A stretch of 59,430 nucleotides of DNA, the filler included. It is 5 parts of 5 records of this genome, joined end to end, with 100 filler letters (N's around TTAATTAATTAA, not from the genome) between each part and the next. Parts side by side here need not be neighbours in the genome. Positions count along the whole stretch, not along the records: positions 33,675 to 47,803 come from DRR378314_1477; 4 more parts are not named here. The stretch is one strand, 5' to 3'. Each line of letters starts with the position of its first letter. Positions within the stretch are counted from its first letter, which is position 1. Below the pieces are notes generated by a model. It saw nothing but the letters and a program-made list of their open reading frames with translations, made no database searches and had not been told where the DNA came from. Both the position numbers and the translations under genes were made by a program. This document shows positions 26,165 to 49,972 of this stretch, one piece after another.

Positions 26165-26200
26165 CACCCGGCAGAGCCTCTCTGTCGGGTGTTTTTCTTT
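26165..26200 (+). terminator. Rho-independent terminator after carA
   Basis: Stem CACCCGGCAGAG / CTCTGTCGGGTG with a 3-nt loop, followed by TTTTTCTTT. Confidence 0.8.
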
Positions 26201-26264
26201 GTGTTTACGGTTGATTACGCGCGATTTACTTTGTCCAACCGCCCTGCCCTGCTAGCCGTAGACG

Positions 26265-28714: not shown

Positions 28715-28828
28715 GACCTCCCTCGCATCGCAACTGTCTACGCCCCCACCCGCCGCCGATCAAGCCTGCGGCGGCCAAAGCCCTTTCCACCATTGCAAAT
28801 TTGCGCACAGCGCCCTAGGTCTCGGGCC

Positions 28829-29473: not shown

Positions 29474-29556
29474 CCTGTCGCAGCGACCAAATGCGCATGT
29501 CAGACGCATGTTATCGCTCCTATATCCTGCGGGTAACTCGCATGACGGAGCCTGAC

Positions 29557-29805
29557 ATGACCGCCTATACCCTACCGCCCAAACTCACCACCTTCGAGCG
29601 CATTGTCTTTCGACTGCCGATCCTTGGCCGGATCTGGAAAGAGGTGAGCTATGGCGACGAGGGCAACATCTACTATGCGCTTGCCACCTTCTTCAGCCTC
29701 TGGGGCATCCTGGTGATGCTGTTTGGCCTGCCCGGTCTCTACCTGCCCGCAGTCGCCTTGGTGCCGATCATGTTTGTGATCCTGATCCTGATCTCGCGCG
29801 GCTAA
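29557..29805 (+). CDS. Small hypothetical membrane protein (82 aa)
   Basis: GGAG RBS upstream of the ATG; two hydrophobic segments. Confidence 0.75.
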   Translation: MTAYTLPPKLTTFERIVFRLPILGRIWKEVSYGDEGNIYYALATFFSLWGILVMLFGLPGLYLPAVALVPIMFVILILISRG

Positions 29806-29889
29806 GCCCCCTGCGGCACAGAGCCGCTTGTCATCCGCCCGCCCCGCGCCCTATGTCTCCTGTCAATGGAACAGCGCGGGGCCTTGGCG

Positions 29890-31086: not shown

Positions 31087-31093
31087 CGTAGAA

Positions 31094-31121
31094 ACGGGCT
31101 TGCCCAGATGGACAAGCCCGT
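31094..31121. terminator. Hairpin between convergent genes
   Basis: ACGGGCTTG...CAAGCCCGT inverted repeat between two convergent stop codons. Confidence 0.6.
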
Positions 31122-31158
31122 GCCTCCGGCGGAGGTATTTCGGAAAAGATGAAAGGCC

Positions 31159-32283
31159 TCAGAGCACCTGATCAAGCACAGTTTTGAGCCGCGACAGTGT
31201 GCCGTGCACGTCATAAAGCTTGTCGAGACCAAAGAGACCAAGCCGGAAGGTCATGAAGCCTTCGGGCTCGTCCACGGCCAGCGGCACCCCGGCCGCGATC
31301 TGCATGCCCTGAGCCGCGAACGTCTTGCCATTCTGGATCTGCGGATCATCGGTGTAGCTGACGACCACGCCGGGTGCGCCGAACCCCTCGGCGGCGACCG
31401 AGGTCACGCCTTTCTTCTCCAGCATCTCGCGCACGCCATTGCCAAGCCGCCATTGCGCCTCGCGCAGGCGGTTGAAGCCATAGTCGCGGGTCTCCACCAT
31501 GGTATCGCGGAAGGCGCGCAGGGCGTCGGTCGGCATGGTGGCATGATAGGCGTGACCGCCGTCCTCATAGGCCTGCATGATGGCGCGCCATTTCTTCAGG
31601 TCGATGGCAAAACTGTCGGAGGTGGTCTCCTCCAATCGCGCCAGCGCCCGTTTGGAGAGCATCACCAGACCGGCGGAGGGCGCCGCGCTCCAGCCCTTTT
31701 GCGGCGCGGAGATCAGCACATCGACGCCGGTGGCCCTCATGTCGACCCAGGCGCAGCCGGAGGCGATGCAATCAAGCACCATCAGCGCGCCGACCTCATG
31801 AGCGGCCTCGGCCAGCGCCGTCACATAGGCGTCGGGCAGGATCACGCCGGCGGCGGTTTCCACATGCGGCGCAAAGACGATCGACGGTTTCTGTTCGCGG
31901 ATCGCGGCGGTGACGTCCTCGATGGGGGCGGGTGCGAAGGGCGATTGCGCGCCGTTGCCGGTCTGGCGCGCTTTCATCACGGTGGCGGAACTGGTCAGTC
32001 CGCCGGTCTCGAAGATCTGGCTCCAGCGGTAAGAAAACCAACCGTTGCGCACCACCAATGCGTCCTGATCGCGGGCGAACTGGCGGGCCACCGCCTCCAT
32101 CGCGTAGGTGCCACCACCGGGGATCAGGGCGGTGGCCTCGGCCTTGTAGACGTCCTTCAGCATGCCGTTGATGTCCAGCATGACCTGCTGGAACTCCTTT
32201 GACATGTGGTTCAGCGACCGGTCGGTGAAAACCACGGAAAACTCATCAAGACCATCGGGGTCGACCGTATCCAAGAGGGCCAT
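31159..32283 (-). CDS. Class V PLP-dependent aminotransferase
   Basis: EFSVVFTDRSLNHMS, PGGGTYAMEA, HVETAAG, LDCIASG and the PLP lysine in SAPQKGW; AAGGAG RBS upstream of ATG 32283. Confidence 0.92.
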   Translation of the reverse strand: MALLDTVDPDGLDEFSVVFTDRSLNHMSKEFQQVMLDINGMLKDVYKAEATALIPGGGTYAMEAVARQFARDQDALVVRNGWFSYRWSQIFETGGLTSSATVMKARQTGNGAQSPFAPAPIEDVTAAIREQKPSIVFAPHVETAAGVILPDAYVTALAEAAHEVGALMVLDCIASGCAWVDMRATGVDVLISAPQKGWSAAPSAGLVMLSKRALARLEETTSDSFAIDLKKWRAIMQAYEDGGHAYHATMPTDALRAFRDTMVETRDYGFNRLREAQWRLGNGVREMLEKKGVTSVAAEGFGAPGVVVSYTDDPQIQNGKTFAAQGMQIAAGVPLAVDEPEGFMTFRLGLFGLDKLYDVHGTLSRLKTVLDQVL

Positions 32284-32414
32284 GCAAAATCTCCTTACTG
32301 AGTCTGAGGCTGCATACGGCAAGACCGCAGCCGGTTGCCCATTGTCATGGCAGAGCCGCCCCGCAGGCTCAAGCACCGCGTTGCTAAAGGATCTGATGCA
32401 AAAGCCGAAAGATG

Positions 32415-32873
32415 CTAGCCCAGCGGGCCGGGACGTCGTTCCTCGGACAAGAGCACATTGGCATCCACGTTGCCCACGCCCGGTAGCGTCATGATCCGGC
32501 GGCGCAGCACCCGTTCAAAATCCGCGATGTCACGCGCCACCACCCTTAGGCGATAGTCATATAGGCCGAGCACATGTTCAACCGTCTGAACCTCGGGGAT
32601 GGCAGAGACCGCGCGTTCGAAATCATCCAGGCTGACGCGCCCCTTGGTGGCCAGCTTGATACCAAGGAAGACGGTGACGCCGAAGCCCAGCTTTTCGGTG
32701 TCCAGATCCAGCACCCGATGCGACAGGATGCCCGCCTCCTCCAGCCGCTTGATCCGCCGCCATGTGGCGGGCTGGCTGAGGCCGAGGGCCCGCCCCAACG
32801 CCCCGGCTGTCTGGGTTGCGTCCTGCGACAGCGCCCTAAGCAGCGCGAGGTCGATCTGATCCAGCGCGCTCAT
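32415..32873 (-). CDS. Lrp/AsnC-family transcriptional regulator
   Basis: LDQIDLALLRAL, LGLSQPATWRRIKRLEEAGI HTH; IPEV and GLYDYRLRV. Confidence 0.93.
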   Translation of the reverse strand: MSALDQIDLALLRALSQDATQTAGALGRALGLSQPATWRRIKRLEEAGILSHRVLDLDTEKLGFGVTVFLGIKLATKGRVSLDDFERAVSAIPEVQTVEHVLGLYDYRLRVVARDIADFERVLRRRIMTLPGVGNVDANVLLSEERRPGPLG

Positions 32874-33325
32874 AGCGGCAGCCCCATGCTGGTCTTGATC
32901 TTCGCCACATGCATCAATGCCTCGATATCGGCGATATTGGGCAGCTGCAGGATGCGGTCGCGATAAATCGCTTGATAATGCGGCATGTCCCGCGCGATCA
33001 CACTCAGGCGCACATCGACCTGGCCGAGGAACGTCTGGATCTCCAGCACCTCCGGGATCTCACGCGCTGCCGGGATGAATTCGTCAAAGGCGCGTGGGTT
33101 GGTCTTATCCAGCGTCACCCGCAACGAGACCTCCACCGCATAGCCAAACGCCGCCCAGTCAATCACCGCCCGGGTACCTTTCAGCACGCCGCCCTCGCGC
33201 AGCTTCTCCAGCCGTCGCGACAGGCGTGAGGCGGTGAGCCCCAGACGGTCGGCAAGATCCGGCAGCGATTGGCCGGGGTCGCCCTGAAGGTTGCGCAATA
33301 TGCGTCGGTCGAGATCATCAAGCAT
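32870..33325 (-). CDS. Lrp/AsnC-family transcriptional regulator
   Basis: MLDDLDRRILRNLQ, HTH, IPEVLEI and GQVDVRL; its stop overlaps the start of the second Lrp. Confidence 0.93.
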   Translation of the reverse strand: MLDDLDRRILRNLQGDPGQSLPDLADRLGLTASRLSRRLEKLREGGVLKGTRAVIDWAAFGYAVEVSLRVTLDKTNPRAFDEFIPAAREIPEVLEIQTFLGQVDVRLSVIARDMPHYQAIYRDRILQLPNIADIEALMHVAKIKTSMGLPL

Positions 33326-33391
33326 GAAAACCACATTATTGTCTATTTGCGCGAATATCCATCGCGAAATTTCTTCACTTCATGCGCATAG

Positions 33392-33574
<183 letters not shown>

Positions 33575-33674
33575 NNNNNNNNNNNNNNNNNNNNNNNNNN
33601 NNNNNNNNNNNNNNNNNNTTAATTAATTAANNNNNNNNNNNNNNNNNNNNNNNNNNNNNNNNNNNNNNNNNNNN
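33575..33674. other. Artificial contig spacer
   Basis: N44-TTAATTAATTAA-N44. Confidence 0.98.
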
Positions 33675-35445
33675 CGCCTTCGGCTCTAGCCAACGGATAG
33701 GACGGTGCACGCCCGACCGTTTGAGTGTACCTCCTGAACTGCACGTCCGACTTTATTTTTCTCCCACTGCTGCTAAAGGAGACTCCGTGCGCTTGTATCG
33801 AAAGTTGAATGTAATAAAACGGCATGAGCGACAGTCTTGATCCAGAAACACCGTAGATCGCAAATGATAATGTGCAGAACTTATACCAAGGCGGAAAGCT
33901 CAGCTCTCCGAGCTCCTGCGCTGCCAATCGTCCCACGCCGCGTTGGTGCGATCGTGGAAGTCACTCGGCGTACCTCCCTTTTCCATCGCGCGTACATACG
34001 GCAGTACACTATCAAAGCACTTCTACGAAGTTCATGCAGGGTAAAACCACCAAAATCTTGTATTCCTATATTGCTCTGTGGTAGCTGATGCGTGGTGAAG
34101 ATTCTAACTCTCACCGCCTCCAAGCGCACGGTGCGAAAGTCAGCCGGGCCCGATGGCAAGGTCGACTGCGCAGCGAACTTCCAGATGCCAGCCAGCGAGA
34201 AAGCCACAGCGCTGGGAAAGTACAGACTAGGCCCCCCGTAGCATTGGCTCCACGAAAGCAGCTTACAAGTCTCCTTTTCCCACGCCAATGCTGTTTTTTT
34301 TTTGGTGAAACACCGCAACAGTATCACCGAGAAGCTTGAAGGGTCACATCACAAGCGACATGATTTCAAAATGCGAGTCCCTCTTCGTCGAGAGCGGCGG
34401 AGACGGTAGCGACAGAGGAAAAGTTCTTTGGACCGCCTCCAGCGAAGCTGCCCATGGCCGCGTGGCTCCCTTGCGCGAACTGGCTTTTCTCCGACATTGC
34501 GCCCAGTCATGCGTTCACATTCAACTCTATATGTATGAGAGATAAGTTTGACAAGAGGGTAGCTCTGTGGTGAAAGTCTGTCTACAGCACGAGGGGGCAA
34601 GAGTAGGCTCGCGCACAACCAAACCAACCCCGTGCGTTTCTTCCCAAAGGGGGGGCCCTGCCACACGTGCAAACTGTGCGGCTGCTCCAGCGCCCGGAAT
34701 GTTTCCGCGCTGCACTAAGGAACCTGTCTGCATCCCACCGGCCCCTTGTTGCTCTCGACCCCTACCTCCCGGGCTTACTCTGACGGCCTCGCTTACCTGT
34801 GCACCCTCCCAGTTCCGCCCGCTGTGAACTCGCTTGCGCACCCGCGCTCGCTGCCGCTCGCGTGTGCCTGCACTGAAATCTGTCGCGTCGCCCATCTGTG
34901 TCGCAGTGCGACAAGACCTTTCTCAACGCGCTCCGGCGTTTCACACTTGTGTGTGCGCGCGCAAAACACCATTCCCTGCCTGCGCTTCTGCTGCTCACGC
35001 GCTTTTTCTTTGTACGAGTGGAGCTCGCCACTGTGCGACACACGGGACTGCTGGTACAAAGAAATCTGTGCGCGTGTTGACGCGGACGAGCAAACAGGGA
35101 ACGCTGTTGTGCAAGCGGCGCGCGGGGAAGCCAGCCAGCGCCTACGTGTCTGAGCTGCAGTCTGCGGCTTTGCTCCGCGTTTCCACACACGCGCGCCTTC
35201 TGCCTCCGGTTACCGGACACGGATCGTCTAAACTAAACGACTCGTGCGTATCGTGTAGAAAGCAATCTGGTATCTGATTGCGTTCAAACTTCTTCTGAAG
35301 AAGAAGCTGCGCGTTTGTCCGGTGTGGTGTACTGCGTACCAGAGCTCCCACACTGCATTACCTGCGCTCTGCATCGCGCAACTGCTTCGTCGAGTAGGAG
35401 CGCACCGCTTGTTTGGTTCGGCAGCTGCCGTCTTTCCGTCCGGGT

Positions 35446-38328
35446 ATGGCCTTGAATACGGGACACTATCAGGCCGAATCGGCGTTTACAATGGCTACAT
35501 CATCGCCATATATACTGCACAACTCTGCAATGTGGACGAAATCTGGCAGCGAGGAAACTCCTGCGCCTCGGCAAGAAGTACGGTACCGTGGCGCCGTGTT
35601 TTTTTTTCTCGATCTCCACGCAACGGTGGAAAACGAAATCAGCGAGGTCGCGTGTGCTGCAGCCTCGTGGGGAAACGGATCGCTGCAGCTCGTGAACCGG
35701 TTTACAGAAAACGGGGGCCCAGATATTACATCATCTCTGACAAGGTTTTTCGCTGCCACACTGGAAGATCACAATGCGTTTGGTGTGCTCTGCGCGTACG
35801 ATGGACGAGCACGAGTCTTTCCTGCGTTGTGTGCGGCAATGCGCAACGCGGCGCAGCCTTTCCCACCGGGAATTGCCACTGCCATCGATGGCCGCGCGCT
35901 GGTACGCGCCACGCGATGCCTGTGCATTGGCAGCAAACGCCCAGATAGCGATGCATTGCGCGACATCCATCGTTTCCTCTTCCTTTCTCCTCTTGTACAC
36001 GATTTTTCAGTACCTGATTGCGCGGCCGCGCTCTTTGAGATTTGCAGCCACGAGTACGTGCTTTCACACCTTGTGCTCTGCACTCGCGCTGCCGCGCCCT
36101 CGGTGTGCGTGCCCGTTCTTGACGCCGGATGGCCGCGTAGTTTCCTCCCGAGCGCGCTGCACCTGAGCAGAGCCTCGCGGTTGCACCACGCCGTCAGCTG
36201 TGGGATGTCTGGACAAAGAGATGATTTTGTGGGTATGCGGAGCCGCGACATCCTTAGCGCGTTACTGGAGGTAGGCGGAGGCGTCCAGGGCGTCAAAGCC
36301 GCGCGCAAGACGAGCGACTCACGACGCTTCGCCCACGGTACAACGGGCGCTTCCCTCCTGTACGAGTCCGATGCTATGCAAGTTGATGAAGAAGACACAT
36401 CTGCGATTGCTCTTCCCGCTCAAGCGGATGATCGCTCCGGATGGATGCCGGATGTTGAGCTGGGCGTCGTCGACGAGCATCCCAGGCTGACGCGAACCGC
36501 CCCCACTGTAAAACTGCATTCTCGCACTTCGCGCTCCGAAGTTTTCGACTTGCTCTGGTGCCCCGTGGAGTCCCTTATACTTACGTACACCAACCAAAGT
36601 GCTGCACGACAGAGCGCAGCCCGCCAACTGGGCGCGTTTGCGAAATGGCTCGGCGCAACGCGCTCGCAGCGGCAGCTGAGCGCTGCCAGAAGCAGCGTTA
36701 CGCCGTCGTCCATTTTTACCGTCTCGGCGAGCACTCCCGGTCAGCATTCGGAAACCGCCTCAGAGACCAAACCTTTTGTTATGCCATGCCACGCGTGGCA
36801 TCCCATTTCTTCTCATGAGTTCCGTGTCTTCGTTGGCCTCATGATATTGACGACTGTAAAGGGCGGCTTCAGTGTGGCAGTGCGTGACTGGTGGTCGCAG
36901 GAACCAGGGCGTGGCTTCGATGTTGCTCGCCGTGCCATGTCGCGCGCGCGCTTTCTCGCTATTGCCGCGCATGTGCGTGTAACCGATCCAGCCAAGGACG
37001 ACCAGCTTGACACGGCTGCCGCTTTTACTTCTGCCCTTTCGCCAGCGGCCAAAGTGCTCGCGACTCTCATGCGTGCGTTTCGCTCCGCTTTCGAGCCAGG
37101 GAGCGGCGTTTTCTTGAGCGACGCGGAAACTACTCTCGTCGTACCGCGCGCTCGACGCGCTGGCGTGGGAAAATATGACATGGAATCGTCGGGTGCTCGC
37201 AAGACAGTCAACCCTGACTCTGTGCGGATCGCAACTGCTGTCGACGAAGAGACTGGGTATCTTGTCACCGTTGCGCTGAGCTCGGCCGTTTGTGCGCCAT
37301 GGTCCCCGCACGCGGCGAGCCCTTCGCATGCAGCTGGTGCGGCGAGCCGTGCCGAAGCGCACTCATTTCGCGCAAAGGCTAACAGCGCAGATGCAGGAAC
37401 TGATAAAACGGAGTGTACAGTGCAGGAAGAGTTCGCCTTGGGACGCCGCGCAGCTACTGCGGCTTGCGCAGCCTTCGCGGCTGCGAACGAGTCGAGTGTC
37501 GTGGTGACCGGAAGCAGCCTCTCGTCGCTGCGGCTGTTTTCGCTGCTATACCGCCGCAACCTATGCGCGTTTGGTCGGATCATTCCTTCGCGTGCTGGGT
37601 TTCCGCTTGATTTGTTTCCGAGCAGTGGGCGTGCAAGTGCGTCCGTGGGGACGAGCTACATGCTCGTCCGCGATGGTCTGTGCGCGATTGCGCGCAAGGG
37701 CGACGGGCTGGTGCACATGATCTCGTCGCTTCCCACGGCGTCGCAAGTGCTGCGAGACCGCGCAAAAGCAACTTCGCTATGCACCGAGACAGAGCGGGAA
37801 GCAGCACCATCGGAGGCGGCTTCGCTGTGTAAGCTACTCGACGAGGCGGCGGTGCCGGGTGCCGCGGAACATGCGTGGGAACGCGCGGTCTTTCACTGGG
37901 CCCTTGGCGCAGTGCTCAAGAACGCGGCGATCCTCTTCCAATTGTCTTCCAAGTCCTCTCACGGCTCGGTCGCAAGTGACTTTGTGTGGCACATAGGAAC
38001 ATCGCTGGCAAAGAATGGGCGGACGGTGTGCCACCCGCCGCAGTCGGAAAAGTCGCACCGTCTGGTCCACGTTGGGCCGCAGGGGGAGCAGAAGCAGGCG
38101 TCGCGGAGACCGGCACTGCGTTGCTTCGTGTGTTCGCACAGTAGGAAGCGCGAAGCACGGACGGTGTATCAATGCGAATGTTGCGAGGTGCCAATGTGTG
38201 GTCCAGGGCGCCCGCACGATTGTTTTGGGACGTTTCACGAGAACCTCGACTATTGGCTACATCTGGCGCGCTCGAAGCGCCGCCGCGTGCGAAAGCAACG
38301 GCCCGAGCACGATACGTTGAGTCCCTAA
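35446..38328 (+). CDS. PiggyBac transposase-derived protein with an N-terminal DEDDh exonuclease-like domain and a C-terminal Cys/His-rich zinc finger; probably domesticated and catalytically dead
   Basis: Uninterrupted ~960-aa ORF. PiggyBac core blocks in order: LILTYTNQSA, WHPISSHEFRVFVGLMIL, DWWS, MSRARFLAI, VDEETGYL, SLRLFSLL...AFGRI...RAGFP, WERAVFHWAL...NAAILF. C-terminal CFVC...YQCECCEVPMC...DCFGTFH. Confidence 0.85.
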   Translation: MALNTGHYQAESAFTMATSSPYILHNSAMWTKSGSEETPAPRQEVRYRGAVFFFLDLHATVENEISEVACAAASWGNGSLQLVNRFTENGGPDITSSLTRFFAATLEDHNAFGVLCAYDGRARVFPALCAAMRNAAQPFPPGIATAIDGRALVRATRCLCIGSKRPDSDALRDIHRFLFLSPLVHDFSVPDCAAALFEICSHEYVLSHLVLCTRAAAPSVCVPVLDAGWPRSFLPSALHLSRASRLHHAVSCGMSGQRDDFVGMRSRDILSALLEVGGGVQGVKAARKTSDSRRFAHGTTGASLLYESDAMQVDEEDTSAIALPAQADDRSGWMPDVELGVVDEHPRLTRTAPTVKLHSRTSRSEVFDLLWCPVESLILTYTNQSAARQSAARQLGAFAKWLGATRSQRQLSAARSSVTPSSIFTVSASTPGQHSETASETKPFVMPCHAWHPISSHEFRVFVGLMILTTVKGGFSVAVRDWWSQEPGRGFDVARRAMSRARFLAIAAHVRVTDPAKDDQLDTAAAFTSALSPAAKVLATLMRAFRSAFEPGSGVFLSDAETTLVVPRARRAGVGKYDMESSGARKTVNPDSVRIATAVDEETGYLVTVALSSAVCAPWSPHAASPSHAAGAASRAEAHSFRAKANSADAGTDKTECTVQEEFALGRRAATAACAAFAAANESSVVVTGSSLSSLRLFSLLYRRNLCAFGRIIPSRAGFPLDLFPSSGRASASVGTSYMLVRDGLCAIARKGDGLVHMISSLPTASQVLRDRAKATSLCTETEREAAPSEAASLCKLLDEAAVPGAAEHAWERAVFHWALGAVLKNAAILFQLSSKSSHGSVASDFVWHIGTSLAKNGRTVCHPPQSEKSHRLVHVGPQGEQKQASRRPALRCFVCSHSRKREARTVYQCECCEVPMCGPGRPHDCFGTFHENLDYWLHLARSKRRRVRKQRPEHDTLSP

Positions 38329-39806
38329 CCCGGCGAACTTGCCCAACGAGCCTGGAGCGCATCGTTGCCGCGATATGGCCTGTGGGGCCGGTGAAATAAT
38401 GGAAAAGATCAACTCGCATGCGCTGTGCACGTGCATCGCAGAATTAAAGGGCGAGGCAGCACGAGCTACGCGAACATCTTCGCCAGGCCACGGCCGCTAC
38501 ACCATTTCTGTACGCAGCAGCAAGGGTGCGACGCGCATGGCGCGTACGTCCGTAGCTCTGTGCCCCCCGACCTGCGCGTTCCGTCAAAAGGAGCGGCACA
38601 CTGCGGCGGACACATGCAGAAAGATATTATTTCCAGAGAAGAAGCGCAACGCCTGCGGGTTAGTGGGCGCCGTGATGGAGGATTTCGTGCTCGCAGAAAT
38701 GACTCCATGCTAGTGCGGAGCGAAGACTCTACTGGTCGGGACACGACGCGCGCGCGAGCTGCTGCCCAGCCCGCTGCGTGCGCTCGCATGCGTCGCACCA
38801 CGGTGTTTCCCGGCTTCTCGTTTGGGGGGTAGTCGTTGTCGTTGACAATGCGTTTTTCCTCTTAATTGCATGCTGTGCCAATACAGGCCCGGGGAGTTGC
38901 CAAGGCGAGAACTACCTTGCTTGGGAAACGTGAGCGCGTTTTGCTGTATCCCCAGTCGCTGTGTAGCGTTTGCCTCTGTGGAGCTTGTACAAAACGCGTA
39001 CGGGCGGGAGGCTGTGCGCGCATTTCAATGCGTTTTATTCCGGACTCTCATGCTTCTTCAAAGTGTGTTTCTTTCGTGTGACTTTTCAACGCACAAGCAT
39101 GGAATAAAAGGTTGCATTCGTATCTAGCTGCGGCAGCAAAAGGAAAAGAAAAGGAGGTCGCCTATCCACGTCAGCGAAAGTGCCCCTCGCCCGGCGCGTG
39201 TCGTGCAAAAAACGCCATGGCAGCCCCACGGGCGTCGCGCGCAGCGCACGTCACGGCTACAGCTGGGACGGGGGCGCCCACGAAGGCCTCGCAGCGTAGG
39301 AAACCGCGGTGCGCGCGAAACTGGCTTGCCAGGCTACGCAACCATGATGTACGGATCGAAACCATCCATGTTTGGCATGGACCGCGCCTGGAGCGCTCCA
39401 GGTTCGGCGGCGGCAGCTGCTGCCGCGTCAGACGCTCGCTCTTGCGCGACCGGCGGAGGCGCGCGGCCCTTTGTGCAGAGGCGGGGGAAGGCTGGCAAGA
39501 AGGGAGCTAGGCGGATGAGGGCCGAAGCAGTTGGAGGATACGCTGCACGCCGCGCAACGCTGGAAATCCTCTGCTCCTTGGGGCGGACTTCCTAGCCCTA
39601 CCAACGGCGACCAAGAAATGCGGCCAGTCTCTCACTGCAATGATATTCTGCACGTTGCTGTTTCGCGTTCGCGCAGCGGCGATTCGCCGACGCTCGACGC
39701 AACCACGACGTAGAGGCGGGAGCAGGCCAACCAACCCCCGGTCGTTCGCGAACCCGCGTGTGCGCGCGGTGCCACGTGCTCGACACGATCCGCGCGCGTC
39801 GGTAGC

Positions 39807-42800
39807 ATGACGTCACTGCAAGATCCCGGTAGGCGCGAAAATGCCCGTACAGTACGGTTCCATGTTTTTGAACGGAGGAGGGGCGAGAAGTTCGAGCAAG
39901 TCGAGACACCTGCGCAAGGTGCGTGCAAACTGCGACTTTCCGCGCGCGCGAGAAGCAAGCCTGTACCTCTTCGCCTCGCTGGCAACAGGTCTCTCGCTTC
40001 TCCTTCAGAACGTGCGACGCCGCTGCGACGCTGCGCGCATTCTTCACGGGCGCCGGTGTATTGCATAGAAGATCTCTACACCACTTCCAAGCTCACAGCG
40101 TAGTTTGTGCGGACTATTTTCTTGCCCTGGTGCAGGAAGCTCTGCCATTGGAGTGATTGAGCTGTGCGATCAGACGCGCGGATACAACGTATTGTGCCAC
40201 GACGTGGAAGACAGCCTTCGCGACGCGCTCGGCCAAGCGGAGCAGCTTGCGCCGCAACTCGCTGCCGTGTGTATTGCATCTTGCCACGAAAATTGCTTTG
40301 TTTTCGGTGCAGATGTTGCAACCGAAGTGGCGATACGGTCGTCGCGAGACGGTTGCGCGCTCAGCCTGCGCGTAAAGGCGCTGTTCTGTAGGCTCGCCGC
40401 GCTGCCCTGCCCGACCGTTGCGGTCATTCGTGGCGGGTGCCTCGGCGGCGGCCTGGAGCTCGCGCTGCACTGCGCCTTTCGCGTTGCCGACGAGCACGGC
40501 AAAACAAGGATTGGATTGCCGGAAGTGAAACTCGGTGTGATTCCGGGCGGCGGAGGGTGCGCGATCTTGCCTCACATAGTCGGCTACGCCACTGCTGCGG
40601 ACCTGCTCGCGTCTGGACGGTCGCTCAACGCTCGCGGAGCCAAGGCGACTGGCCTCGTGGATGCCATCGTGCCGTGCGCCCGCTTCATCGACAGTCATCC
40701 TCCTGCATGGCTCTCCGCCGTGTTTGATCTTGTACATACACGTGCGGCATGCATACCGAATGCGGCCCGGATGTTCGACCCAGCAGGCGCTGTACGCCGC
40801 GGCTGCGCCATCGCCGAGGTTGTCGAGAACGCGGCGGCGGTGCGCGGGTCCAACTGTGCCACAAACGCTCCCCTGCTTGCTCGGGTCGCCAATGCCAGCC
40901 CAATAGCGCGTGCTGTGCGTGCCTATGCATGCGCTGCAGTTGCCAAAAAGGTAGGCACCAGATACAACGCCCCCTTCGAGGTACGCTATCGCTGTGCGCG
41001 GATGGTTGCGCATGCGCTCGCTGAATGGTGAAGACTCCTTGCGCAGCACGCAAGGCGCAACCTCGGGCAGGCACCGGCGGCGTACCAACGGCACACGGCG
41101 TGGGTCCGGGAATTCTGCGGAAGCCTCACCTTTGCAAACTCGGCTGGATATATATGCTGTTCAAGGCTAGTATGTATCATAATGAATTTCTCCTTACGGG
41201 CGTGTACGCTTCCGAATCGCTTTGATGTGCAGGCGCTGCGCGTTGCGTTCTGGTCGCTCTCGCAGCCGGCGCTGGCGTATGCGGACGAGAGCAGCACGTT
41301 TGGCATGACCGTCGTTACGCCAGAAGCCAAGGCGCTGTCGGGCCTGTTCTTGTCAGGACAGGTGCTCAAGCGCGCATGGCGCGGTGTTTGCGCAGTGCCT
41401 GCGATGGAAAGTCTTCGGAAACGTGTCGCTGACGGCGAGGCTGTTCATGTGTGTGTTGTGGGTGCGGGCTACATGGGGAGCGGAATCGCGCTCCATATGC
41501 TGCAGCGCGGCCTACGAGTGACCCTCGTGGACACGAGCCCAGCGGCTCTTGACAAATTCATGCGGAATGCAAATGCAAAGCGGCACCTTGTCACGGCATG
41601 TATGTCGCTGCGTGACGTCGACTGGGTGTCTGTGGAGATTGTACTCGAATCAGTGACCGAAGATATCGCACTGAAAAGGTCCGTTGAGCGAGACGGTGGA
41701 CATTGGGACTCTTTTGATCCCTTGCACGGCGCCCTTATTTGTATCGATGTTCTGAGATATAGGACTGAACGCCCCTCTATCGGCAGCGGCTGTGGTAGAA
41801 GGATGAAATGTGGCAGAGCTGGGCGCGTCCTGGTAGAGCGTGTATAGCCAAGCGCGCGGCTGGCACACGGTCGCTCGCAGCATGGACCTGGTTGGGCGCG
41901 GCGTGATTTCGAGCTCCCCAAATAGCAACTGTTGAGGTTTCAGGAAACGGAAGTCTGTAGATGCGGGTCGATCGCGGTGCATCATGCACATTGCAGCGTG
42001 CAAACAGCGCGCCATCTCGCATGAATGCAACACGAGTGCGGGACACGCGCGCAGGATTAGGATGCGGCTCCTGCATTCTGAAGCACTATCCTGCCTGTTT
42101 CCATACGCGCGTCACACGCACTTCAAGTACACAGAGATGCGGCGTCTGCCACTGCGTAGGGCTAGGCGAGTGGCGTCTGCCTTCGCTCGCCACAGCGCTG
42201 CGGAGCGCTGCCTTCGCACGCTGCGCCGCAGTGGCGCCCGTGTCCCAACACTGTACACCTGCCGATCTCGTCTCGCAGCAGCGGCTTTACGAACGCGAGT
42301 GGGCGCAGCCGCTCTCGATGTCCATATCGTGCGGGCCCCTACGGTCGCAGCCTTCTCACAAAGGGCGACGCTTCCGTGTTTATTGTGTCCGCGCGCAGGG
42401 CATTGTTTGCAGAGCTCAAGGAGCACGCCACGGCGGATACCGTACTGCTGTCGAATACGTCGTCGATTCCATTGCACGAACTCGCCGAAGGGGGCCGAAT
42501 TGTGGGGTTTCACTGCTTCCATCCGGAGAGAAATCGAACCCCTGTCGTGGAAATTCCTGTGCCAGGACTGCCGCTTGGCGCCGAGATAGTGCCTGCGCAA
42601 TCCAGCAATCCCGACCATGTCTCCTGCGCCGCCTCGCTGGCCCTCCGCCTCGGCAAGACGCCGGTACTTGTGCGTGGTGACGCGAAAGCGTTCGTTGCCA
42701 ACAGATTACTCGCAACATACCTGGTCGCCTCGACCGCCTTGGCTTGCGCCTCGACGCTCCCGCTAGCCGAGGTACGCTATCGAATTCGATGTTTGTATGC

Positions 42801-44276
42801 ATGCGGGACTCTTGCGCACATGTAGAATAAGCCGAGTACGATGCCAACACGTAGGGAAACGCTGCCGGTGAACGCCGCCACAAGAGCTGCTTCCGCGATC
42901 ACGCAGTGCGGCCTCTTGCCGTGCATCTGCGCAAGAACCATGGAGCTCCAACGGGTTGGCAGGGAAGTTTGCGCTCGTTGATCTCGATCAAGGTTCACGC
43001 TACTGGCTCTGTTGTAGGAATTTGTGTCGTTTTGCGACTTATCCGTGCTGTATTCAAATTTGGGGGGGGAATACGTTAGGCCGGGCGCGGTGAAGCTCGC
43101 CCGGCGTGCGCATATTCTGCTCTGGCGCGTAGGAGAACGGTTCGCCACGTGCCACACAAGCAACCCCAACGCTGTGCAAATTTTCTCTTTCTACAGCATA
43201 CTCTTCGCATACTGGAAGCTTTACAACCTGCAAAAAAGCAGTCGCCGTTGTGGATTAGCGGGGTAGCTCTGTTGCATGGCGCTACCCAACGTGCGCGCCA
43301 GTGGGAGCGCGAACCTCGTTCTCACGCCCACGCAAGGCTCAGGCGCAGCTCCGAGCTGGCTGCCGCTGGCGACGCTCGCGTCGCCTGTCCCTCGCCACCT
43401 TCCCCCGCCCCCGGTTTCCCAAACGTAAGTTTTTCAGAATCGCCATACCAGCCCACCATATTCCAACATCATGCATGTCACTGTTGCATGACGTCTGCCT
43501 GCGCGTTGTAGGCAATCACTCGCGTAGAGAGGAGCTGCTCTGCGTTCGGGTTTGTTGTCGGCCCTTTCACAGCGCTCGATCGGGTTGGCCTTGCGACGGC
43601 TAGCAAAGTCGCCACGCTCGCCGCACAGGCCCTTCCACATGCATCAACGTTTACAAAGGAAATCGAACATGTTCTGACGGACATATATGCCCATGGGATA
43701 CGGGGTGGTCACAAAAATCCGGGCATTCTTCTCTGCCCGCGCCGTGCTGCGCGTGCAAACCCGCGCGCGGTAGATCATTTGCAGCGCTTGGCAGATGCAT
43801 TGGGGGGCGCTGTAGATCCGCTTCGTGTCGATCAGGGCTACATCATTGCCAGCGCTATTGCCGCTGAAGCAGCGCGATGTGTTGACGCTGGTCTGTGTCC
43901 GCAAGAAGCCTGTGATGTTCTCTCCGTTCTCGCGGTGGGTTTTCCGCCGTTCTGGGGCGGTGCGCTCGCGTTTGCACGAGGCGAAGGACCGGGCAACGTC
44001 CGCAGCGCGCTGCGGACTGTCAGCTGCAAGCACTCTTGGCTCAAAGGCGTGTTCGCATGCCCCGCATCTATTGCACGACACACAGCTGCGATGTATCCAG
44101 ATCGTGCTCCAGCAGCGCATTTGCCGCGCGAAAGTGGAGAACAAATGCTGCACGCTGCCCGCGCGCAGCCCTCTGTTGTAGCGGCACTTGTCTGGGCCGG
44201 TGCGTACGCCTCTGCGCTATGCGGTATCGTCACTGCCGCTGTGGTGGCATGGCGTAGAGCGCAGCCAGTTGTATAG
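39807..44276 (+). CDS. Multifunctional fatty-acid beta-oxidation enzyme (enoyl-CoA hydratase + 3-hydroxyacyl-CoA dehydrogenase), 5 exons (39807-39918, 40136-40980, 41233-41678, 42399-42771, 43512-44276), ~846 aa
   Basis: Hydratase motifs FVFGADV, GGCLGGGLELAL, IGLPEVKLGVIPGGGG. Dehydrogenase motifs VVGAGYMGSGIA, ESVTED, SNTSSIP, GFHCFHP, LGKTPV, FVANRLL, GPFTALDRVGL. Splicing is phase-consistent. Confidence 0.9.
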
Positions 44277-45213
44277 AGTTTTCGTATGCAACGACTGTGG
44301 CAGCGTCGTTGGTGTTATGTTGGCAGTTGCTTGGTGAATACGTGCAACTATACGACCAGCCAAGGTCGGCGCTGCGACAGTATCGTCCTGAACCGCTCGC
44401 GCGCCATTATTTCCTGCCAAGTATGTGCTCGCAGCAGCACTGTGTGCAGTACATTGCGCTCTCTCGATGATCGAAATATGTACATTTCCAAGCGGACTGC
44501 GAAATTTCAATTCATGCGCGGTGGCTTGGACCGAGCACCTCGTGCCCGCTCACCCGGATACTTGCACGGCCAAACGGGTGGCGATGTAAGAATAAAAAGG
44601 AAGGGCAGGCTAGCGTACACAGCCCCTTGCCGCTGCTGCGCACGCGTTCGTTCACGACCTTGCAACAGGCAGCACGTCACGTTTTTAACGCGTACGAGAG
44701 CGTCGGCCAGCGATCGCATGTATGATAAACCTTTGCAAGCAAGGACGCGCTGCGCATCCATCAGAGCGCCGTGCGCAGCCTGCTGTGCCTTTGCGCAGGT
44801 TACCATGGGCGTGCCGGGCAACGTGGGTCTACGCTTTCGAGCTCTCCGGGGACTTCGAGGACCAAAATTGCGGTATGTAGCCGTGCATGGACCGTTGTTT
44901 CGTCAACGAGCACGGGCTAAGCATGCCAGAGAAGAAAACTTCCAGTACAATATGAGAGCTGCAGAACTCCGAGCTCTGCGTTTGGGCAGCGCGCCCATAA
45001 TTCTCCACACTCCGCTCCTTCACACGCCAAACAAATCGTCGAACTGCTCTTAAGAGAGGGCCTACTGCAATATCTTTCTTGCATCGCGCTTAAGTCACGC
45101 ACCACGCTCGTAATGCAGCACACAGTACCGCAGCTGTGCTGCAACTCTTTGCACGGCGGACTCGCCGAGATGAAGAGGGCCTCGCGGTGACAGAAATAAA
45201 AATTCATGATTAC

Positions 45214-47337
45214 TTACAGCTCCGTTAGTGCGGTTCGGTCGATTCTGCCGCCGGTGAGCTTTTGCGCGCGAAATCTGCGGTAACCAAGAGCAGCTAGCAC
45301 AGCCGCGCACACTATTGCAGCAACTACGCCAAGTGGGAATCCACCTCCACTGTCGCCGCCGGACGACGGGCTGCCGCTGGGTTGCGCTGACTTGTCACAC
45401 ATTGCTTCTACTGTACATGATCCAGAGAGACCTTCCAGAGTTGTGCAAGGCTCTCCTGCCATGTTGGAAGAGCACGTGAAAGTGAAACTGTCGTCGTCCC
45501 CAACTTCGCGTGCGCAGGTCGGCCCGCACTGCTCGTTCGCGGTGCTGCAGGGATCGCCGGCTGTGCCGCACGGCGATGCGCACACTGGGAGAGCACCCGC
45601 CATTTCGCAAGTCCCTGGATGCCCACCCTCGGTGGTGCACGCAACATCCACAAGCTGCTGCATCTCGCACTGCTGCGTGTCGCAACTGAAGTGCCACGGG
45701 GCGCACGGCCCGTTGAGCACCTCCTGTGTACAGAGTGCCGCAGGATCGCCATTGACCTTTTCGCCAACGAAATTGCCGTTCTCGCACATGCCCTCGGTAG
45801 AGCATGTAGCCGTACCTGTATTATCAAATACGCACACTCCTTTGTTTCGAGCATCTAGTGCGCACCGTGCGCCCTCAAGCGGCTCGAAGTTGCATCCACC
45901 GCTTTCCGTGCACGAGCGAGTAAAACAGTCCTGCGGCCCAGGAGCTTTCGTCCACGGGCACGTAGCGTCGAGGCCGTCAGCGCACGCGGCGCGGCAAGCG
46001 CCATCTGCACCGCATGTGCCCGCCGTACCGTTGATATCGCATGACTCGGCGTTTTTGAAACTATAGCTACATTTCTTTTCGCCGTCTACGGTTTTGCAGG
46101 TCGGGGGCCCGCTTACGCACTGCTCACTCACATTGTCGCCGTACGGACAAGCTGCGAGCACGTCCGCCGCGCATAGCTCAGGCGCGCATGCCCCAGTGCT
46201 GCTGCATGCGCCGAACGTTCCGTTTGGTTTCGCACACCGTGTCCCAGTCTCGCGTTGATCAAGCTTACATACTGGATTGTTATCTTCAACAACACAGTAG
46301 GACACGACGCACTCTTCGCTTGCGTTGGGGTCGGCAGGGCAAGCGGTAGCGCTTGTGCCGTCGCACGAGGCAACACACTGCCCTTCAGTGCTGCAAACAC
46401 CGAGCGTGTCGCCAAAATTGCAGCGGGTCCCGGCGCGCTTGCCGTCGCACTGCCCAGCCACGAGGCATACAGCGCTTTGACAGGCACCTATCCTTTTTTC
46501 GCTCGTCTCGGCGTCGACAATGAGACATTCGTGCCCGTCTGCAGCAACATCGCAAGTCCCTTGATGGACGCACGCACCGTTCCGGCAGACGCCCGGAACA
46601 TCGTCAAAGCCAGAGTAAGGGCGCGACAGCTTGCAAAGCGTATCATCGGCCACACCGAAGCATCCCCGTGTTGTATCACATAGTAACTCGTTCTCGTTGT
46701 TTTCTACACACTCGCCAGTGGCGCCAGAGTATAGTACGCAGCGGTCTCCGACTTGTTTTCTGGATCCTTGCACCTCACTACAAATCTTGTTGGGGCACTT
46801 GTACGTCGTGCACGCCGCCTTGGCCTCCGAGATTCCGCAGTCATCAGTAACAATGTTGGCCCAGCACTCCTCTTCCACGCATGAACCCTCTCGACATTGC
46901 CCGTGGTTATCTGTCGATCCCTCGCATGCGCCGCTCTGAACCTGAAAATTGCTGCAGTTCGGTGACCCATCGTCGTTGTACTCACAGTCAGCTGTCGCGC
47001 AGCGCTTGTCCAGCGTCTCGTTGAAACACAACGCGTCGGCGTCGCACGCTCGCTCGCCCGCCTCGCACTGTGACGTTGACGAGAGTAGCGTGCCTAGGCA
47101 ACTAAATGGCGAGGGCGGCCCACTCGCGTCGCCTCCAAAGCACGCGGCGAATCCACCGCTGACACAGTAGGCACAAGAGCAGCCTTCCTCAAGCACGGCA
47201 GCGGTGCAGGCACCGCATGAAGTGCGCGCGGTGCATTTTGAGCTTGTGTACGCGCACGGCTCGGCCGTCGACGGGATCGGCATCCAAAGCAACAGCAGTG
47301 CCAGCGCCCATAGTGCGACGCGGCCGTCGAGGTGCAT
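45214..47337 (-). CDS. Cysteine-rich type I membrane (cell-surface) protein, single exon, ~707 aa
   Basis: Signal peptide (RVALWALALLLLWMPIPSTA), PSI-like start (CTARTSCGACT...CSCAYC), repeated GxC-x(2-4)-GxC modules, Ser/Gly linker, TM helix (FPLGVVAAIVCAAVLAALGY) and a short basic tail. Confidence 0.85.
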   Translation of the reverse strand: MHLDGRVALWALALLLLWMPIPSTAEPCAYTSSKCTARTSCGACTAAVLEEGCSCAYCVSGGFAACFGGDASGPPSPFSCLGTLLSSTSQCEAGERACDADALCFNETLDKRCATADCEYNDDGSPNCSNFQVQSGACEGSTDNHGQCREGSCVEEECWANIVTDDCGISEAKAACTTYKCPNKICSEVQGSRKQVGDRCVLYSGATGECVENNENELLCDTTRGCFGVADDTLCKLSRPYSGFDDVPGVCRNGACVHQGTCDVAADGHECLIVDAETSEKRIGACQSAVCLVAGQCDGKRAGTRCNFGDTLGVCSTEGQCVASCDGTSATACPADPNASEECVVSYCVVEDNNPVCKLDQRETGTRCAKPNGTFGACSSTGACAPELCAADVLAACPYGDNVSEQCVSGPPTCKTVDGEKKCSYSFKNAESCDINGTAGTCGADGACRAACADGLDATCPWTKAPGPQDCFTRSCTESGGCNFEPLEGARCALDARNKGVCVFDNTGTATCSTEGMCENGNFVGEKVNGDPAALCTQEVLNGPCAPWHFSCDTQQCEMQQLVDVACTTEGGHPGTCEMAGALPVCASPCGTAGDPCSTANEQCGPTCAREVGDDDSFTFTCSSNMAGEPCTTLEGLSGSCTVEAMCDKSAQPSGSPSSGGDSGGGFPLGVVAAIVCAAVLAALGYRRFRAQKLTGGRIDRTALTEL

Positions 47338-47803
47338 TGTGCCACCAGATGTAGACCTAATTCCGCGCTGACGTGCGGTAAGTACGGGCAGCGACTGTGA
47401 GACGGAGCGAATAAACGGCAATGTGTGATTTGTCAACGTGGTGCTTTGCAGCGCGTTTTCGGTTTGTTCCCGACGGAAGCAACACTGCTTCTCCGATGCG
47501 AAGTTGGCGTGGTACCGTCAAAACCGCGCTGCGAGGGAGAAACGAGCGACGTTTGCGGGGGAACAATAAGCCACACTAGAGATAGGACAAAAGCAAACGC
47601 GGCGGCAGAACCGAGAAACGCTTTGACTGAAGAAGACTGCGGAAGAAAGGCATCGGCTATAGCGACAATCCCCGCGTGAGCCGCGCGGCACAACACGATC
47701 TGCGACCTTGCTCTCGCGGCCTGCGCATATGCGTTCCCGAGCAGGAAAGGAAGAGCGAAGAGAGCGAGCTCGCGCGCATCGACGATGCAAACGCTGTGGC
47801 ACA

Positions 47804-49969: not shown

Positions 49970-49972
49970 CCC

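What the first reader, a model, noticed from the sequence alone, without database searches (positions are those of the whole stretch)
35596..36045. Hidden degenerate DnaQ/DEDDh exonuclease domain fused in front of a piggyBac transposase
Seen: the N-terminal part of the ORF reads VFFFLDLHAT...EISEVA...VLCAYDGRARVFPAL...AIDGRALVR...ALRDIHRFLF...HDFSVPDCAAALFEI. Established: this follows the order and spacing of DEDDh 3'-5' exonuclease motifs (DnaQ/TREX1/RNase T): ExoI hhhhDhETTG..EIhEhA, ExoII LVAHNG..FDh.hL, hDTh.hAR, L..hh..h, ExoIII H.A..D..A. Inference: the fold is kept but metal ligands are altered (ExoI E to H, ExoII D to V, ExoIII degenerate). I do not recognise this architecture among the described domesticated piggyBacs (PGBD1-5, PiggyMac, TPB). 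It could derive from a piggyBac lineage that carried its own end-processing nuclease.
Basis: partly seen in the sequence, partly recalled or inferred. Interest (0 to 1): 0.82.

Follow-up and report, generated by a model that had tools for sequence, protein, structure and literature searches.

The report
Dead piggyBac gene with exonuclease-like head
A single 971-codon gene from a marine eukaryote joins a decayed piggyBac "jumping-gene" enzyme to an N-terminal part that probably descends from a DNA-trimming exonuclease, a combination I could not find described, but only protein-language-model comparisons support the exonuclease reading.

Summary
They lie in one 971-codon frame (35413-38328, +) that also carries a real piggyBac transposase domain (Pfam DDE_Tnp_1_7, 59.6 bits) and a Cys/His-rich C-terminus.

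No classical method confirms that residues 62-215 are a DEDDh exonuclease. Pfam, NCBIfam, PHROGs, PADLOC and PDB sequence searches gave no relevant hit. A scan of 1.84 billion proteins gave 0 hits. My own bacterial DEDDh profiles scored no better than shuffles (p about 0.1). Both AlphaFold models were too poor to use.

Protein-language-model features do support it. For the N-terminal part alone, 24 of the 30 nearest Atlas clusters fall in sets that list a DEDDh-type family (TREX1-like, Exuperantia, PML_C, RNase_T). For the whole protein, the nearest cluster (0.95; 107 members, representative 1025 aa) carries DDE_Tnp_1_7 in 99% and RNase_T in 15% of members.

At the proposed positions only 2 of 5 DEDDh ligands remain. 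The second transposase Asp appears lost. There are no inverted repeats and no TTAA upstream.

Best reading: an immobile, probably domesticated piggyBac-derived protein with a pseudo-exonuclease head (confidence about 0.5).

The window is five unrelated contigs joined by linkers, two of them bacterial.

The parts
35413..38328 (+). Whole open frame, 971 codons plus stop. In-frame ATGs are at 35446 (M12), 35491 (M27) and 35530 (M40).
   Evidence: 0 stops in the first 440 codons against 14.1 expected. One contig of run X1 spans 34882-37465 and another 37443-38800, with no joint and no difference, but the run may be DNA.
35596..36057 (+). Proposed DEDDh-like pseudo-exonuclease domain, residues 62-215
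   Evidence: Atlas features. Hydrophobic, globular-like composition: 36% WFYILVCM, mean hydropathy +0.22. The low-confidence AF2 model has secondary-structure order E-E-E-H-E-H-H-H-H-H-H. No profile or fold support.
35596..35652 (+). ExoI-like stretch, residues 62-80. D67 is kept and H69 stands where the Glu would be.
35785..35829 (+). ExoII-like stretch, residues 125-139. V135 stands where the Asp would be.
   Evidence: Assignment by reading only.
35881..35907 (+). Strand-5-like stretch AIDGRALVR, residues 157-165
   Evidence: Assignment by reading only.
35953..36042 (+). ExoIII-like stretch, residues 181-210. H196 is kept, P201 is at H+5 and D202 at H+6.
   Evidence: As an alternative, my bacterial profile placed residues 175-194 on its helix A/strand 4 region (model 73-92), also at a negative score. 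The register is therefore not settled.
36058..36744 (+). Linker, residues 216-444, with an acidic patch at residues 318-357 (nt 36364-36483, 30% D+E)
   Evidence: No Pfam family.
36769..37116 (+). piggyBac domain, first matched stretch (residues 453-568 = DDE_Tnp_1_7 positions 29-130). The candidate first catalytic Asp, D570, follows directly at nt 37120-37122.
37270..37482 (+). Ala/Ser-rich insertion in the transposase domain, residues 620-690
   Evidence: 17% hydrophobic. Not covered by the Pfam match.
37483..37758 (+). piggyBac domain, second matched stretch (residues 691-782 = profile 203-289). There is no Asp or Glu between E693 and D733, where the second catalytic Asp is expected.
   Evidence: The position of the catalytic Asp in the family is recalled, not tested.
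37831..37938 (+). Region of the candidate third catalytic Asp (D810) and the conserved Trp-containing helix, residues 807-842
   Evidence: Assignment by reading and recall.
38122..38238 (+). C-terminal Cys/His-rich domain, residues 904-942 (C904, C907, C921, C923/C924, C929, H935, C937, H942)
   Evidence: No Pfam hit. The likeness to the piggyBac cysteine-rich DNA-binding domain is recalled.
38275..38301 (+). Basic tail KRRRVRKQR, residues 955-963, a possible nuclear localisation signal
   Evidence: Inference.
33675..47803 (.). The 14,129-base contig that holds the gene. It is bounded on both sides by artificial N44-TTAATTAATTAA-N44 linkers.

Best explanation
The frame 35413-38328 encodes an immobile, probably domesticated, piggyBac-derived protein of a marine eukaryote. 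It descends from a piggyBac lineage whose transposase carried an N-terminal DEDDh (TREX/Exuperantia/RNase T-like) 3'-5' exonuclease domain. In this copy both nuclease centres are degenerate. The exonuclease-like head keeps 2 of 5 metal or general-base positions (D67, H196). The transposase core has no acidic residue where the second catalytic Asp is expected. The Cys/His-rich C-terminal domain, a basic tail and the long open frame are kept. I infer that the protein no longer cuts or trims DNA. I think it acts as a nuclear nucleic-acid-binding factor: the cysteine-rich and transposase DNA-binding parts would target DNA, and the pseudo-exonuclease head would hold a single-stranded 3' end or structured nucleic acid, as described for the pseudo-exonucleases Exuperantia and PML PXL. 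What is shown: the frame, the piggyBac domain, the residues present, and the absence of inverted repeats and upstream TTAA. What is inferred: the DEDDh ancestry (language-model evidence only), the loss of catalysis, and the binding role.
For: piggyBac domain: Pfam DDE_Tnp_1_7 at 59.6 bits against a cut-off of 22.4, in two stretches. Same frame, coding-like and open beyond chance (P about 6e-7 for the first 440 codons). DEDDh ancestry: for residues 50-260, 24 of the 30 nearest Atlas clusters fall in sets that list RNase_T, Exu_RNase_H_like or PML_C, including a TREX1-like cluster at 0.92; in the largest set (15 hits) the top cluster lists RNase_T in only 28% of members. For the whole protein, the nearest cluster scores 0.95 with 199 of 256 features; it has 107 members, a 1025-aa representative, and carries DDE_Tnp_1_7 in 99% and RNase_T in 15%. 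The tool states that shuffled proteins reach 0.95 about once in 100. The low-confidence AF2 model has a strand-strand-strand-helix-strand-helix order followed by helices, which is compatible with the fold. Immobility: no inverted repeats flank the frame, there is no TTAA anywhere in 33675-35600, and there is no second copy in the window. Degeneracy: residues read directly. Precedents for transposon-borne exonucleases are KolobokD, with a DEDDh gene likened to Exuperantia, TREX and ERI1 (PMC9587614, passages), and Dada, with a DEDDy domain inside the transposase (PMC3706591, passages). A precedent for a dead exonuclease fold serving as a nucleic-acid binder is PML PXL (PMC13659232, abstract).
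Against: No alignment-based method sees a DEDDh domain. Pfam gave 0 families at E<=10 on four N-terminal fragments, NCBIfam 0, PADLOC 0, and PHROGs only an unrelated 14-bit hit. PDB phmmer returned only an unrelated chemoreceptor at E 0.96, although DEDDh structures should be in that library. There were 0 hits among 1,835,955,588 representatives. Against my two bacterial DEDDh profiles the N-terminal part scored -0.9 and -0.5 bits, and 191 and 218 of 2000 shuffles did as well. hhalign gave probability about 1%. The best pairwise score against 79 bacterial domains was 2.1 bits, and 136 of 200 shuffles did as well. The N-terminal Atlas hits share only 138-156 of 256 features, below the 170 that the tool gives as typical of same-family hits, and the tool says its calibration was not measured on parts of proteins. 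RNase_T is on only 15% of the members of the nearest cluster, and I could not see where in those proteins it lies. The AF2 models are below usable confidence and Foldseek gave 0 matches at E<=0.001. No orthologue was found, so purifying selection is untested. Expression is not shown. The positions of the transposase catalytic residues rest on recall of the family.
Confidence: 0.5

Rival explanations
1. The N-terminal 62-215 is a lineage-specific extension of a piggyBac-derived protein with no DEDDh ancestry. On this view the motif likeness is a reading artefact and the language-model hits are chance or driven by composition.
For: All profile, pairwise and fold searches were negative or uninformative. 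The N-terminal Atlas hits share fewer than 170 features. The tool says shuffled proteins reach 0.9 in 4-10 of 100 cases and that all ten best hits agree in a third of those. My bacterial profile preferred another register for residues 175-194.
Against: Independently, the whole-protein look-up found a piggyBac cluster of similar length in which 15% of members carry RNase_T. Profile methods weight the invariant catalytic residues most, and these are the ones replaced here. By the same count, 85% of that related cluster's members also carry no RNase_T hit.
Confidence: 0.25
2. The frame is a decaying relic of an exonuclease-bearing piggyBac transposon with no host function. Both domains are simply eroding, and the frame is still open because inactivation was recent.
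For: Catalytic positions are lost in both domains. Low-complexity insertions lie inside the transposase domain. No orthologue or expression evidence was obtained. The second Pfam stretch alone scores 18.8 bits, below the cut-off.
Against: An uninterrupted 971-codon frame with coding-type codon-position bias across all parts is hard to square with divergence so deep that no relative is found by sequence, unless selection kept the frame open. The Cys/His pattern of the C-terminal domain is complete. There is no second copy in the window.
Confidence: 0.2
3. The N-terminal part is not translated together with the transposase, because of a downstream start, a separate upstream reading frame, or an unrecognised intron.
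For: No RNA evidence could be obtained. The only public run that holds the stretch is of unknown kind. The contig's neighbouring ECH/3HCDH gene is split, so this organism has introns. In-frame Met codons exist further down.
Against: There are no stops in 971 codons and the codon-position bias is the same in the N-terminal and transposase parts. A single contig of run X1 bridges 34882-37465 without a joint (weak, since the run may be DNA). The nearest Atlas cluster has a similar full length, 1025 aa.
Confidence: 0.08
4. It is an active autonomous piggyBac transposon copy whose exonuclease and transposase work with non-canonical residues.
For: The frame is intact, D570 and D810 are present, the Cys/His domain is complete, and E693 lies 5-7 residues before the expected second Asp.
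Against: No terminal inverted repeats. No TTAA in the 1.7 kb of contig upstream of the frame. No acidic residue in 694-732. Three of the five DEDDh positions are non-acidic.
Confidence: 0.03

Closest known systems
Domesticated piggyBac-derived genes (PGBD1-5 of vertebrates; PiggyMac and TPB genes of ciliates)
   Same: A single immobile gene with a DDE_Tnp_1_7 core and a C-terminal Cys-rich domain, no terminal repeats, and some catalytic residues lost, as in several PGBDs (the state of the PGBDs is recalled). A foreign domain fused at the N-terminus has precedent in PGBD1 with SCAN and in the CSB-PGBD3 fusion (recalled).
   Different: None of the described ones that I know of, or found in six literature searches, carries an exonuclease-like N-terminal domain. 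No sequence relative was retrievable. The host is a marine eukaryote, possibly a green alga, not a vertebrate or ciliate.
KolobokD DNA transposons (TTAA-targeting Kolobok lineage encoding a DEDDh exonuclease)
   Same: A cut-and-paste DDD/E transposon lineage associated with a DEDDh exonuclease that the authors liken to Exuperantia, TREX and ERI1 (PMC9587614, passages). The N-terminal part here falls next to the same families in the Atlas.
   Different: The transposase superfamily is different (Kolobok, not piggyBac). The paper lists the exonuclease among accessory proteins and does not describe a fusion in the passages I read. It was reported from molluscs, arthropods and cnidarians.
Dada transposons with an internal DEDDy exonuclease domain
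   Same: An exonuclease domain lies within the same polypeptide as the transposase. The authors propose that it processes 3' ends exposed during transposition (PMC3706591, passages).
   Different: It is the DEDDy type with all four acidic residues conserved. It is inserted between catalytic residues rather than N-terminal. The superfamily is different.
Pseudo-exonucleases Exuperantia and PML PXL
   Same: Exonuclease folds that lack catalytic residues and act as nucleic-acid-binding modules (PML PXL: PMC13659232, abstract; Exuperantia: search listing only, otherwise recalled). Atlas clusters carrying Exu_RNase_H_like and PML_C are among the nearest to residues 50-260.
   Different: Neither is linked to a transposase, both are animal proteins, and no alignable similarity was shown here.
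TREX1/TREX2 and bacterial DnaQ, RNase T, ExoX, Orn (active DEDDh enzymes)
   Same: The proposed order of ExoI, ExoII and ExoIII-like stretches, with D67 and H196 at two of the five positions. A TREX1-like cluster scored 0.92 in the Atlas.
   Different: Three of the five catalytic positions are replaced. No Pfam RNase_T match. No signal against 5 E. coli or 39 bacterial domains.

Membership tests
piggyBac transposase superfamily (Pfam DDE_Tnp_1_7, PF13843) | Profile match above the curated cut-off | tested here: met
   59.6 bits against 22.4, E 4.2e-16, two stretches covering profile positions 29-130 and 203-289 of 349
piggyBac transposase superfamily (Pfam DDE_Tnp_1_7, PF13843) | Catalytic Asp-Asp-Asp triad | tested here: inconclusive
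   D570 and D810 are present at plausible places. There is no Asp or Glu between E693 and D733, where the second Asp is expected. The expected places come from recall of the family and Pfam coordinates, not from an alignment with a reference transposase, which I could not fetch.
piggyBac transposase superfamily (Pfam DDE_Tnp_1_7, PF13843) | C-terminal cysteine-rich domain | tested here: inconclusive
   A complete Cys/His pattern is read at residues 904-942. No profile exists in the libraries searched. The reference pattern is recalled.
Mobile piggyBac element | Terminal inverted repeats flanked by TTAA | tested here: not met
   No flanking inverted repeat. Zero TTAA in 33675-35600. The contig gives only 1.7 kb upstream.
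DEDDh / DnaQ-like exonucleases (Pfam RNase_T PF00929 and relatives) | Profile match | tested here: not met
   0 Pfam families at E<=10 on four fragments. NCBIfam, PADLOC and PHROGs gave none relevant. My own profiles were no better than shuffles.
DEDDh / DnaQ-like exonucleases (Pfam RNase_T PF00929 and relatives) | Five catalytic residues D, E, D, H, D in three motifs | tested here: not met
DEDDh / DnaQ-like exonucleases (Pfam RNase_T PF00929 and relatives) | RNase H-like alpha/beta fold | tested here: inconclusive
   AF2 without an alignment gave pLDDT 38.9 and 45.8. Foldseek against PDB gave 0 matches at E<=0.001. The secondary-structure order of the poor model is compatible.
piggyBac proteins carrying RNase_T (ESM Atlas cluster, unnamed) | Nearest-neighbour likeness of the whole protein, and of the N-terminal part to DEDDh clusters | tested here: met
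   0.95 and 199 of 256 features to a cluster carrying DDE_Tnp_1_7 in 99% and RNase_T in 15% of members. 24 of 30 N-terminal hits fall in sets that list a DEDDh-type family. There is no alignment, so homology of the two N-terminal parts is inferred.
Domesticated transposase genes | Orthologues under purifying selection at a fixed locus | not testable with these tools
   No relative was found and no genome is held for the window.

The most novel reading that the evidence does not exclude
There is an undescribed clade of piggyBac elements, seen so far in green algae and other microbial eukaryotes, whose transposase carries its own N-terminal TREX/Exuperantia-like DEDDh exonuclease. This locus would be a host-captured descendant in which both the exonuclease and the transposase active sites have been switched off, leaving a two-headed nucleic-acid-binding protein.
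Probability: 0.45. Interest if true: 0.65.

Novelty: new variant of a known kind. Interest (0 to 1): 0.5.

Why it matters
Exonucleases that travel with cut-and-paste transposons have been reported for Kolobok and Dada but, as far as my searches reach, not for piggyBac. piggyBac is the best-studied TTAA-specific element and a widely used genome-engineering tool. A natural piggyBac lineage with a built-in 3'-5' exonuclease would bear on how transposon ends or donor gaps are processed. A doubly inactivated descendant would be another case of nuclease folds reused as nucleic-acid binders. For this locus the claim rests on language-model likeness, so its main value is as a pointer to the 107-member Atlas cluster, where the question can be settled.

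Tried and rejected
Relatives by sequence:
- Word-indexed searches found none: N-terminal residues 40-330 (5849 candidates, none at E<=1), residues 430-971 (8000 scored, none) and residues 445-575 (480 candidates, none).
- An exhaustive phmmer of residues 40-300 against 1.84 billion representatives gave 0 hits.
- Metagenome contigs: 22 pattern matches, none a relative. Viral contigs: none.
- Earlier findings of this scan: nothing relevant.

Structure:
- Two single-sequence AF2 runs gave pLDDT 38.9 and 45.8.
- Foldseek on the better model returned tyrosine phosphatases and other unrelated folds, none at E<=0.001. I disregard these.

Profiles:
- I built DEDDh profiles from E. coli K-12 (5 domains) and from 80 loci of E. 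coli and Pseudomonadota genomes (79 domains found, 39 kept at under 60% identity). There was no signal.
- I looked for bacterial PML_C-type sequences to build a closer profile. None of 401 genomes scored above the cut-off.
- I could not fetch TREX1, Exuperantia, PML or reference piggyBac sequences with the tools. The register of the motifs and the catalytic positions therefore rest on reading and recall.

Expression:
- No RNA holder is listed. The one run that holds the stretch (X1, share 0.87) is of unknown kind.
- Its contigs do not cover 34300-34881. I draw nothing from that.

Other:
- No whole genome is held for the window.
- No Rfam family or tRNA was found in the window to place the organism.
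- Supplementary files of PMC9587614 and PMC3706591 (transposon protein sets) were not opened. They may hold piggyBac families with accessory domains.
Full report
WHAT THE WINDOW IS
The 59,430-base window is not one piece of genome. Four artificial joints of the form N44-TTAATTAATTAA-N44 cut it into five contigs: 1-24996, 25097-33574, 33675-47803, 47904-53453 and 53554-59430.

The second and fourth contigs are bacterial. Their proteins match GT2, HAD, an FAD monooxygenase, dihydroxy-acid dehydratase, an AraC regulator and an alpha/beta hydrolase in Pfam. Lrp-type regulators and ilvC I recognised only by reading the sequence. The dehydratase is 83% identical to those of Roseobacter-group genera.

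The finding lies on the third contig (14,129 bases, GC 0.59). That contig also holds an enoyl-CoA hydratase/3-hydroxyacyl-CoA dehydrogenase gene split into several frames, which points to a eukaryote with introns. It also holds a 740-aa Cys-rich membrane-protein frame with no Pfam family. Genes beyond the joints are not neighbours of the finding.

No whole genome is held. No Rfam family or tRNA was found to place the organism.

THE OBSERVATION
The frame runs from 35413 to 38328 (971 codons), with in-frame ATGs at 35446, 35491 and 35530.

Its first 440 codons contain no stop, where shuffles of the same bases give 14.1 on average (P about 6e-7). The other five frames of the same stretch have 4 to 13 stops. 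The N-terminal 230 codons show the same G-rich first and G-poor second codon positions as the transposase part. The N-terminal part is therefore coding, or was until very recently, and is in frame with what follows.

THE TRANSPOSASE HALF
- Pfam DDE_Tnp_1_7 matches at 59.6 bits against a cut-off of 22.4. Residues 453-568 match profile positions 29-130.
- Residues 691-782 match profile positions 203-289, scoring 18.8 bits on their own.
- Between the two stretches lies an Ala/Ser-rich insertion, residues 620-690.
- The C-terminus has a complete Cys/His pattern (residues 904-942) and a basic tail (955-963). By recall, this pattern is that of the piggyBac cysteine-rich DNA-binding domain.
- D570 and D810 stand where I expect the first and third catalytic Asp. 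Between E693 and D733 there is no acidic residue, and that is where the second Asp should be. These expectations come from Pfam coordinates plus my recall of the family. I could not fetch a reference piggyBac protein to align.
- No inverted repeats flank the frame. There is no TTAA at all in the 1.7 kb of contig upstream. There is no second copy in the window.

This is an immobile, probably catalytically dead, piggyBac-derived gene.

THE N-TERMINAL HALF: NEGATIVE RESULTS
- Pfam gave no family at E<=10 on four different N-terminal fragments.
- NCBIfam and PADLOC gave none. PHROGs gave only a 14-bit hit to an unrelated 52-position model.
- phmmer against PDB sequences gave nothing for the whole protein and one unrelated chemoreceptor at E 0.96 for residues 55-230.
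- An exhaustive phmmer of residues 40-300 against 1,835,955,588 representative proteins returned 0 hits at E<=0.001. Three word-indexed searches returned nothing. Metagenome and viral contig scans found no relative.
- I built my own DEDDh profiles. One came from the five RNase_T-type domains of E. coli K-12. The other came from 39 non-redundant domains, kept out of 79 found in 80 loci of E. coli and Pseudomonadota genomes.
- With all filters off, residues 50-239 scored -0.9 and -0.5 bits. 191 and 218 of 2000 shuffles did at least as well.
- hhalign gave a probability of about 1%.
- The best pairwise phmmer score against the 79 bacterial domains was 2.1 bits, and 136 of 200 shuffled queries did at least as well.
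- The two short local alignments that hmmsearch reported had negative scores.
- AlphaFold2 without an alignment gave mean pLDDT 38.9 for 261 residues and 45.8 for 178 residues. Foldseek on the better model found nothing at E<=0.001, and its top matches were unrelated folds.

The structure test was uninformative rather than negative. The profiles available to me were bacterial only.

THE N-TERMINAL HALF: POSITIVE RESULTS
The ESM Atlas look-up of residues 50-260 returned 30 nearest clusters at 0.91-0.93. They break down as follows:

| Hits | Set |
|---|---|
| 6 | Unnamed bacterial set |
| 4 | TREX1-like set (top cluster: RNase_T 75%, RNase_H_2 37%) |
| 2 | Exuperantia |
| 15 | 3'-5' exonuclease set (top cluster: RNase_T in 28% of members) |
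| 3 | Single molluscan clusters with RNase_T, PML_C and Exu_RNase_H_like |

The caveats are the tool's own. Shuffled proteins reach 0.9 in 4-10 of 100 cases. The shared features (138-156 of 256) are below the 170 typical of same-family hits. The calibration was not measured on parts of proteins.

The look-up of the whole protein gave one cluster at 0.95 with 199 of 256 shared features. It has 107 members and a 1025-aa representative. It carries DDE_Tnp_1_7 in 99% and RNase_T in 15% of members, and it is mostly eukaryotic, with Chlorophyta the commonest among the 4 members of known phylum. Shuffled proteins reach 0.95 about once in 100.

This shows that piggyBac proteins of about this length with a Pfam-detectable RNase_T domain exist. 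It also shows that in most members of that cluster the domain, if homologous, escapes Pfam, as it does here. I could not retrieve the members, so I do not know where in them the RNase_T hit lies.

The poor AF2 model has three strands, a helix, a strand, a helix and then helices. That order is compatible with the DnaQ-like fold but proves nothing.

The composition of residues 62-215 is that of a folded domain (36% large hydrophobic residues). The following stretch contains a 30% acidic patch.

WEIGHING
Profile methods draw most of their score from the invariant catalytic columns. D67 and H196 are kept.

The failure of the profiles therefore weighs less than it would for an intact enzyme, but it leaves the case resting on one kind of evidence. 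I put the DEDDh ancestry of residues 62-215 at about 0.7. I put the full best explanation (DEDDh-derived pseudo-exonuclease on a dead, domesticated piggyBac protein acting as a nucleic-acid binder) at about 0.5.

MECHANISM
In intact relatives, a 3'-5' exonuclease fused to the transposase would most plausibly trim 3' ends at transposon ends or at the donor gap. The authors of the Kolobok and Dada papers proposed this for their elements (PMC9587614, passages; PMC3706591, passages).

In this copy neither active site looks complete. I therefore infer a binding role: DNA targeting through the cysteine-rich and transposase DNA-binding parts, and single-strand or structured nucleic-acid binding through the dead exonuclease fold. 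The PML PXL domain is a reported case of this kind (PMC13659232, abstract). Exuperantia is another (search listing only; otherwise recalled). All of this is inference.

COMPARISON AND NOVELTY
The gene passes the profile test for the piggyBac superfamily but not the tests for a mobile element. It fails the defining tests for an active DEDDh enzyme. It resembles domesticated piggyBac genes in kind.

Six full-text searches combining piggyBac with DEDDh, DnaQ, TREX1, exonuclease domain, RNase T, or domesticated plus fusion found no description of a piggyBac protein with an exonuclease domain. Three other searches concerned PML or Exuperantia. Four of the papers found by these searches were read in passages and do not mention one. 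A term search of the PML exonuclease paper found no mention of transposons. Supplementary files were not seen.

I rate it a new variant of a known kind, of moderate interest. The caveat is that the decisive alignment with the Atlas cluster could not be made here.

Noticed in passing
window 24997-25096, 33575-33674, 47804-47903, 53454-53553: Four artificial joints (44 N, TTAATTAATTAA, 44 N) show that the window is five separate contigs strung together. Gene neighbourhood across them is meaningless.
   Followed up: yes
window 25097-33574 and 47904-53453: Two of the five contigs are bacterial. They carry GT2, HAD, an FAD monooxygenase, a class-V aminotransferase, dihydroxy-acid dehydratase, an AraC regulator and an alpha/beta hydrolase by Pfam, plus Lrp-type regulators and ilvC by reading only. 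The dehydratase is 83% identical to Roseobacter-group genera such as Cribrihabitans and Epibacterium. The assembly mixes a marine eukaryote with associated bacteria.
   Followed up: partly
window 45214-47436 (-): A 740-aa frame with an N-terminal hydrophobic stretch, a very Cys-rich repetitive body and a C-terminal membrane anchor, with no Pfam family. It is probably a surface protein of the eukaryote.
   Followed up: no
window 40105-44276 (+): An enoyl-CoA hydratase (ECH_1) frame and a 3-hydroxyacyl-CoA dehydrogenase (3HCDH_N, only the first half of the profile) frame are interrupted by stops and gaps. This looks like one multifunctional beta-oxidation gene with introns.
   Followed up: partly
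window 54718-59430 (+): A 1571-codon frame runs off the end of the window. It has no Pfam family, and many long frames overlap it on the other strand. It may be a low-complexity GC-rich gene.
   Followed up: no
window 1-24996: A eukaryote-like contig of lower GC (0.53) with BRE1, WD40 and Nfu_N frames. Whether it is from the same organism as the piggyBac contig is not known.
   Followed up: no
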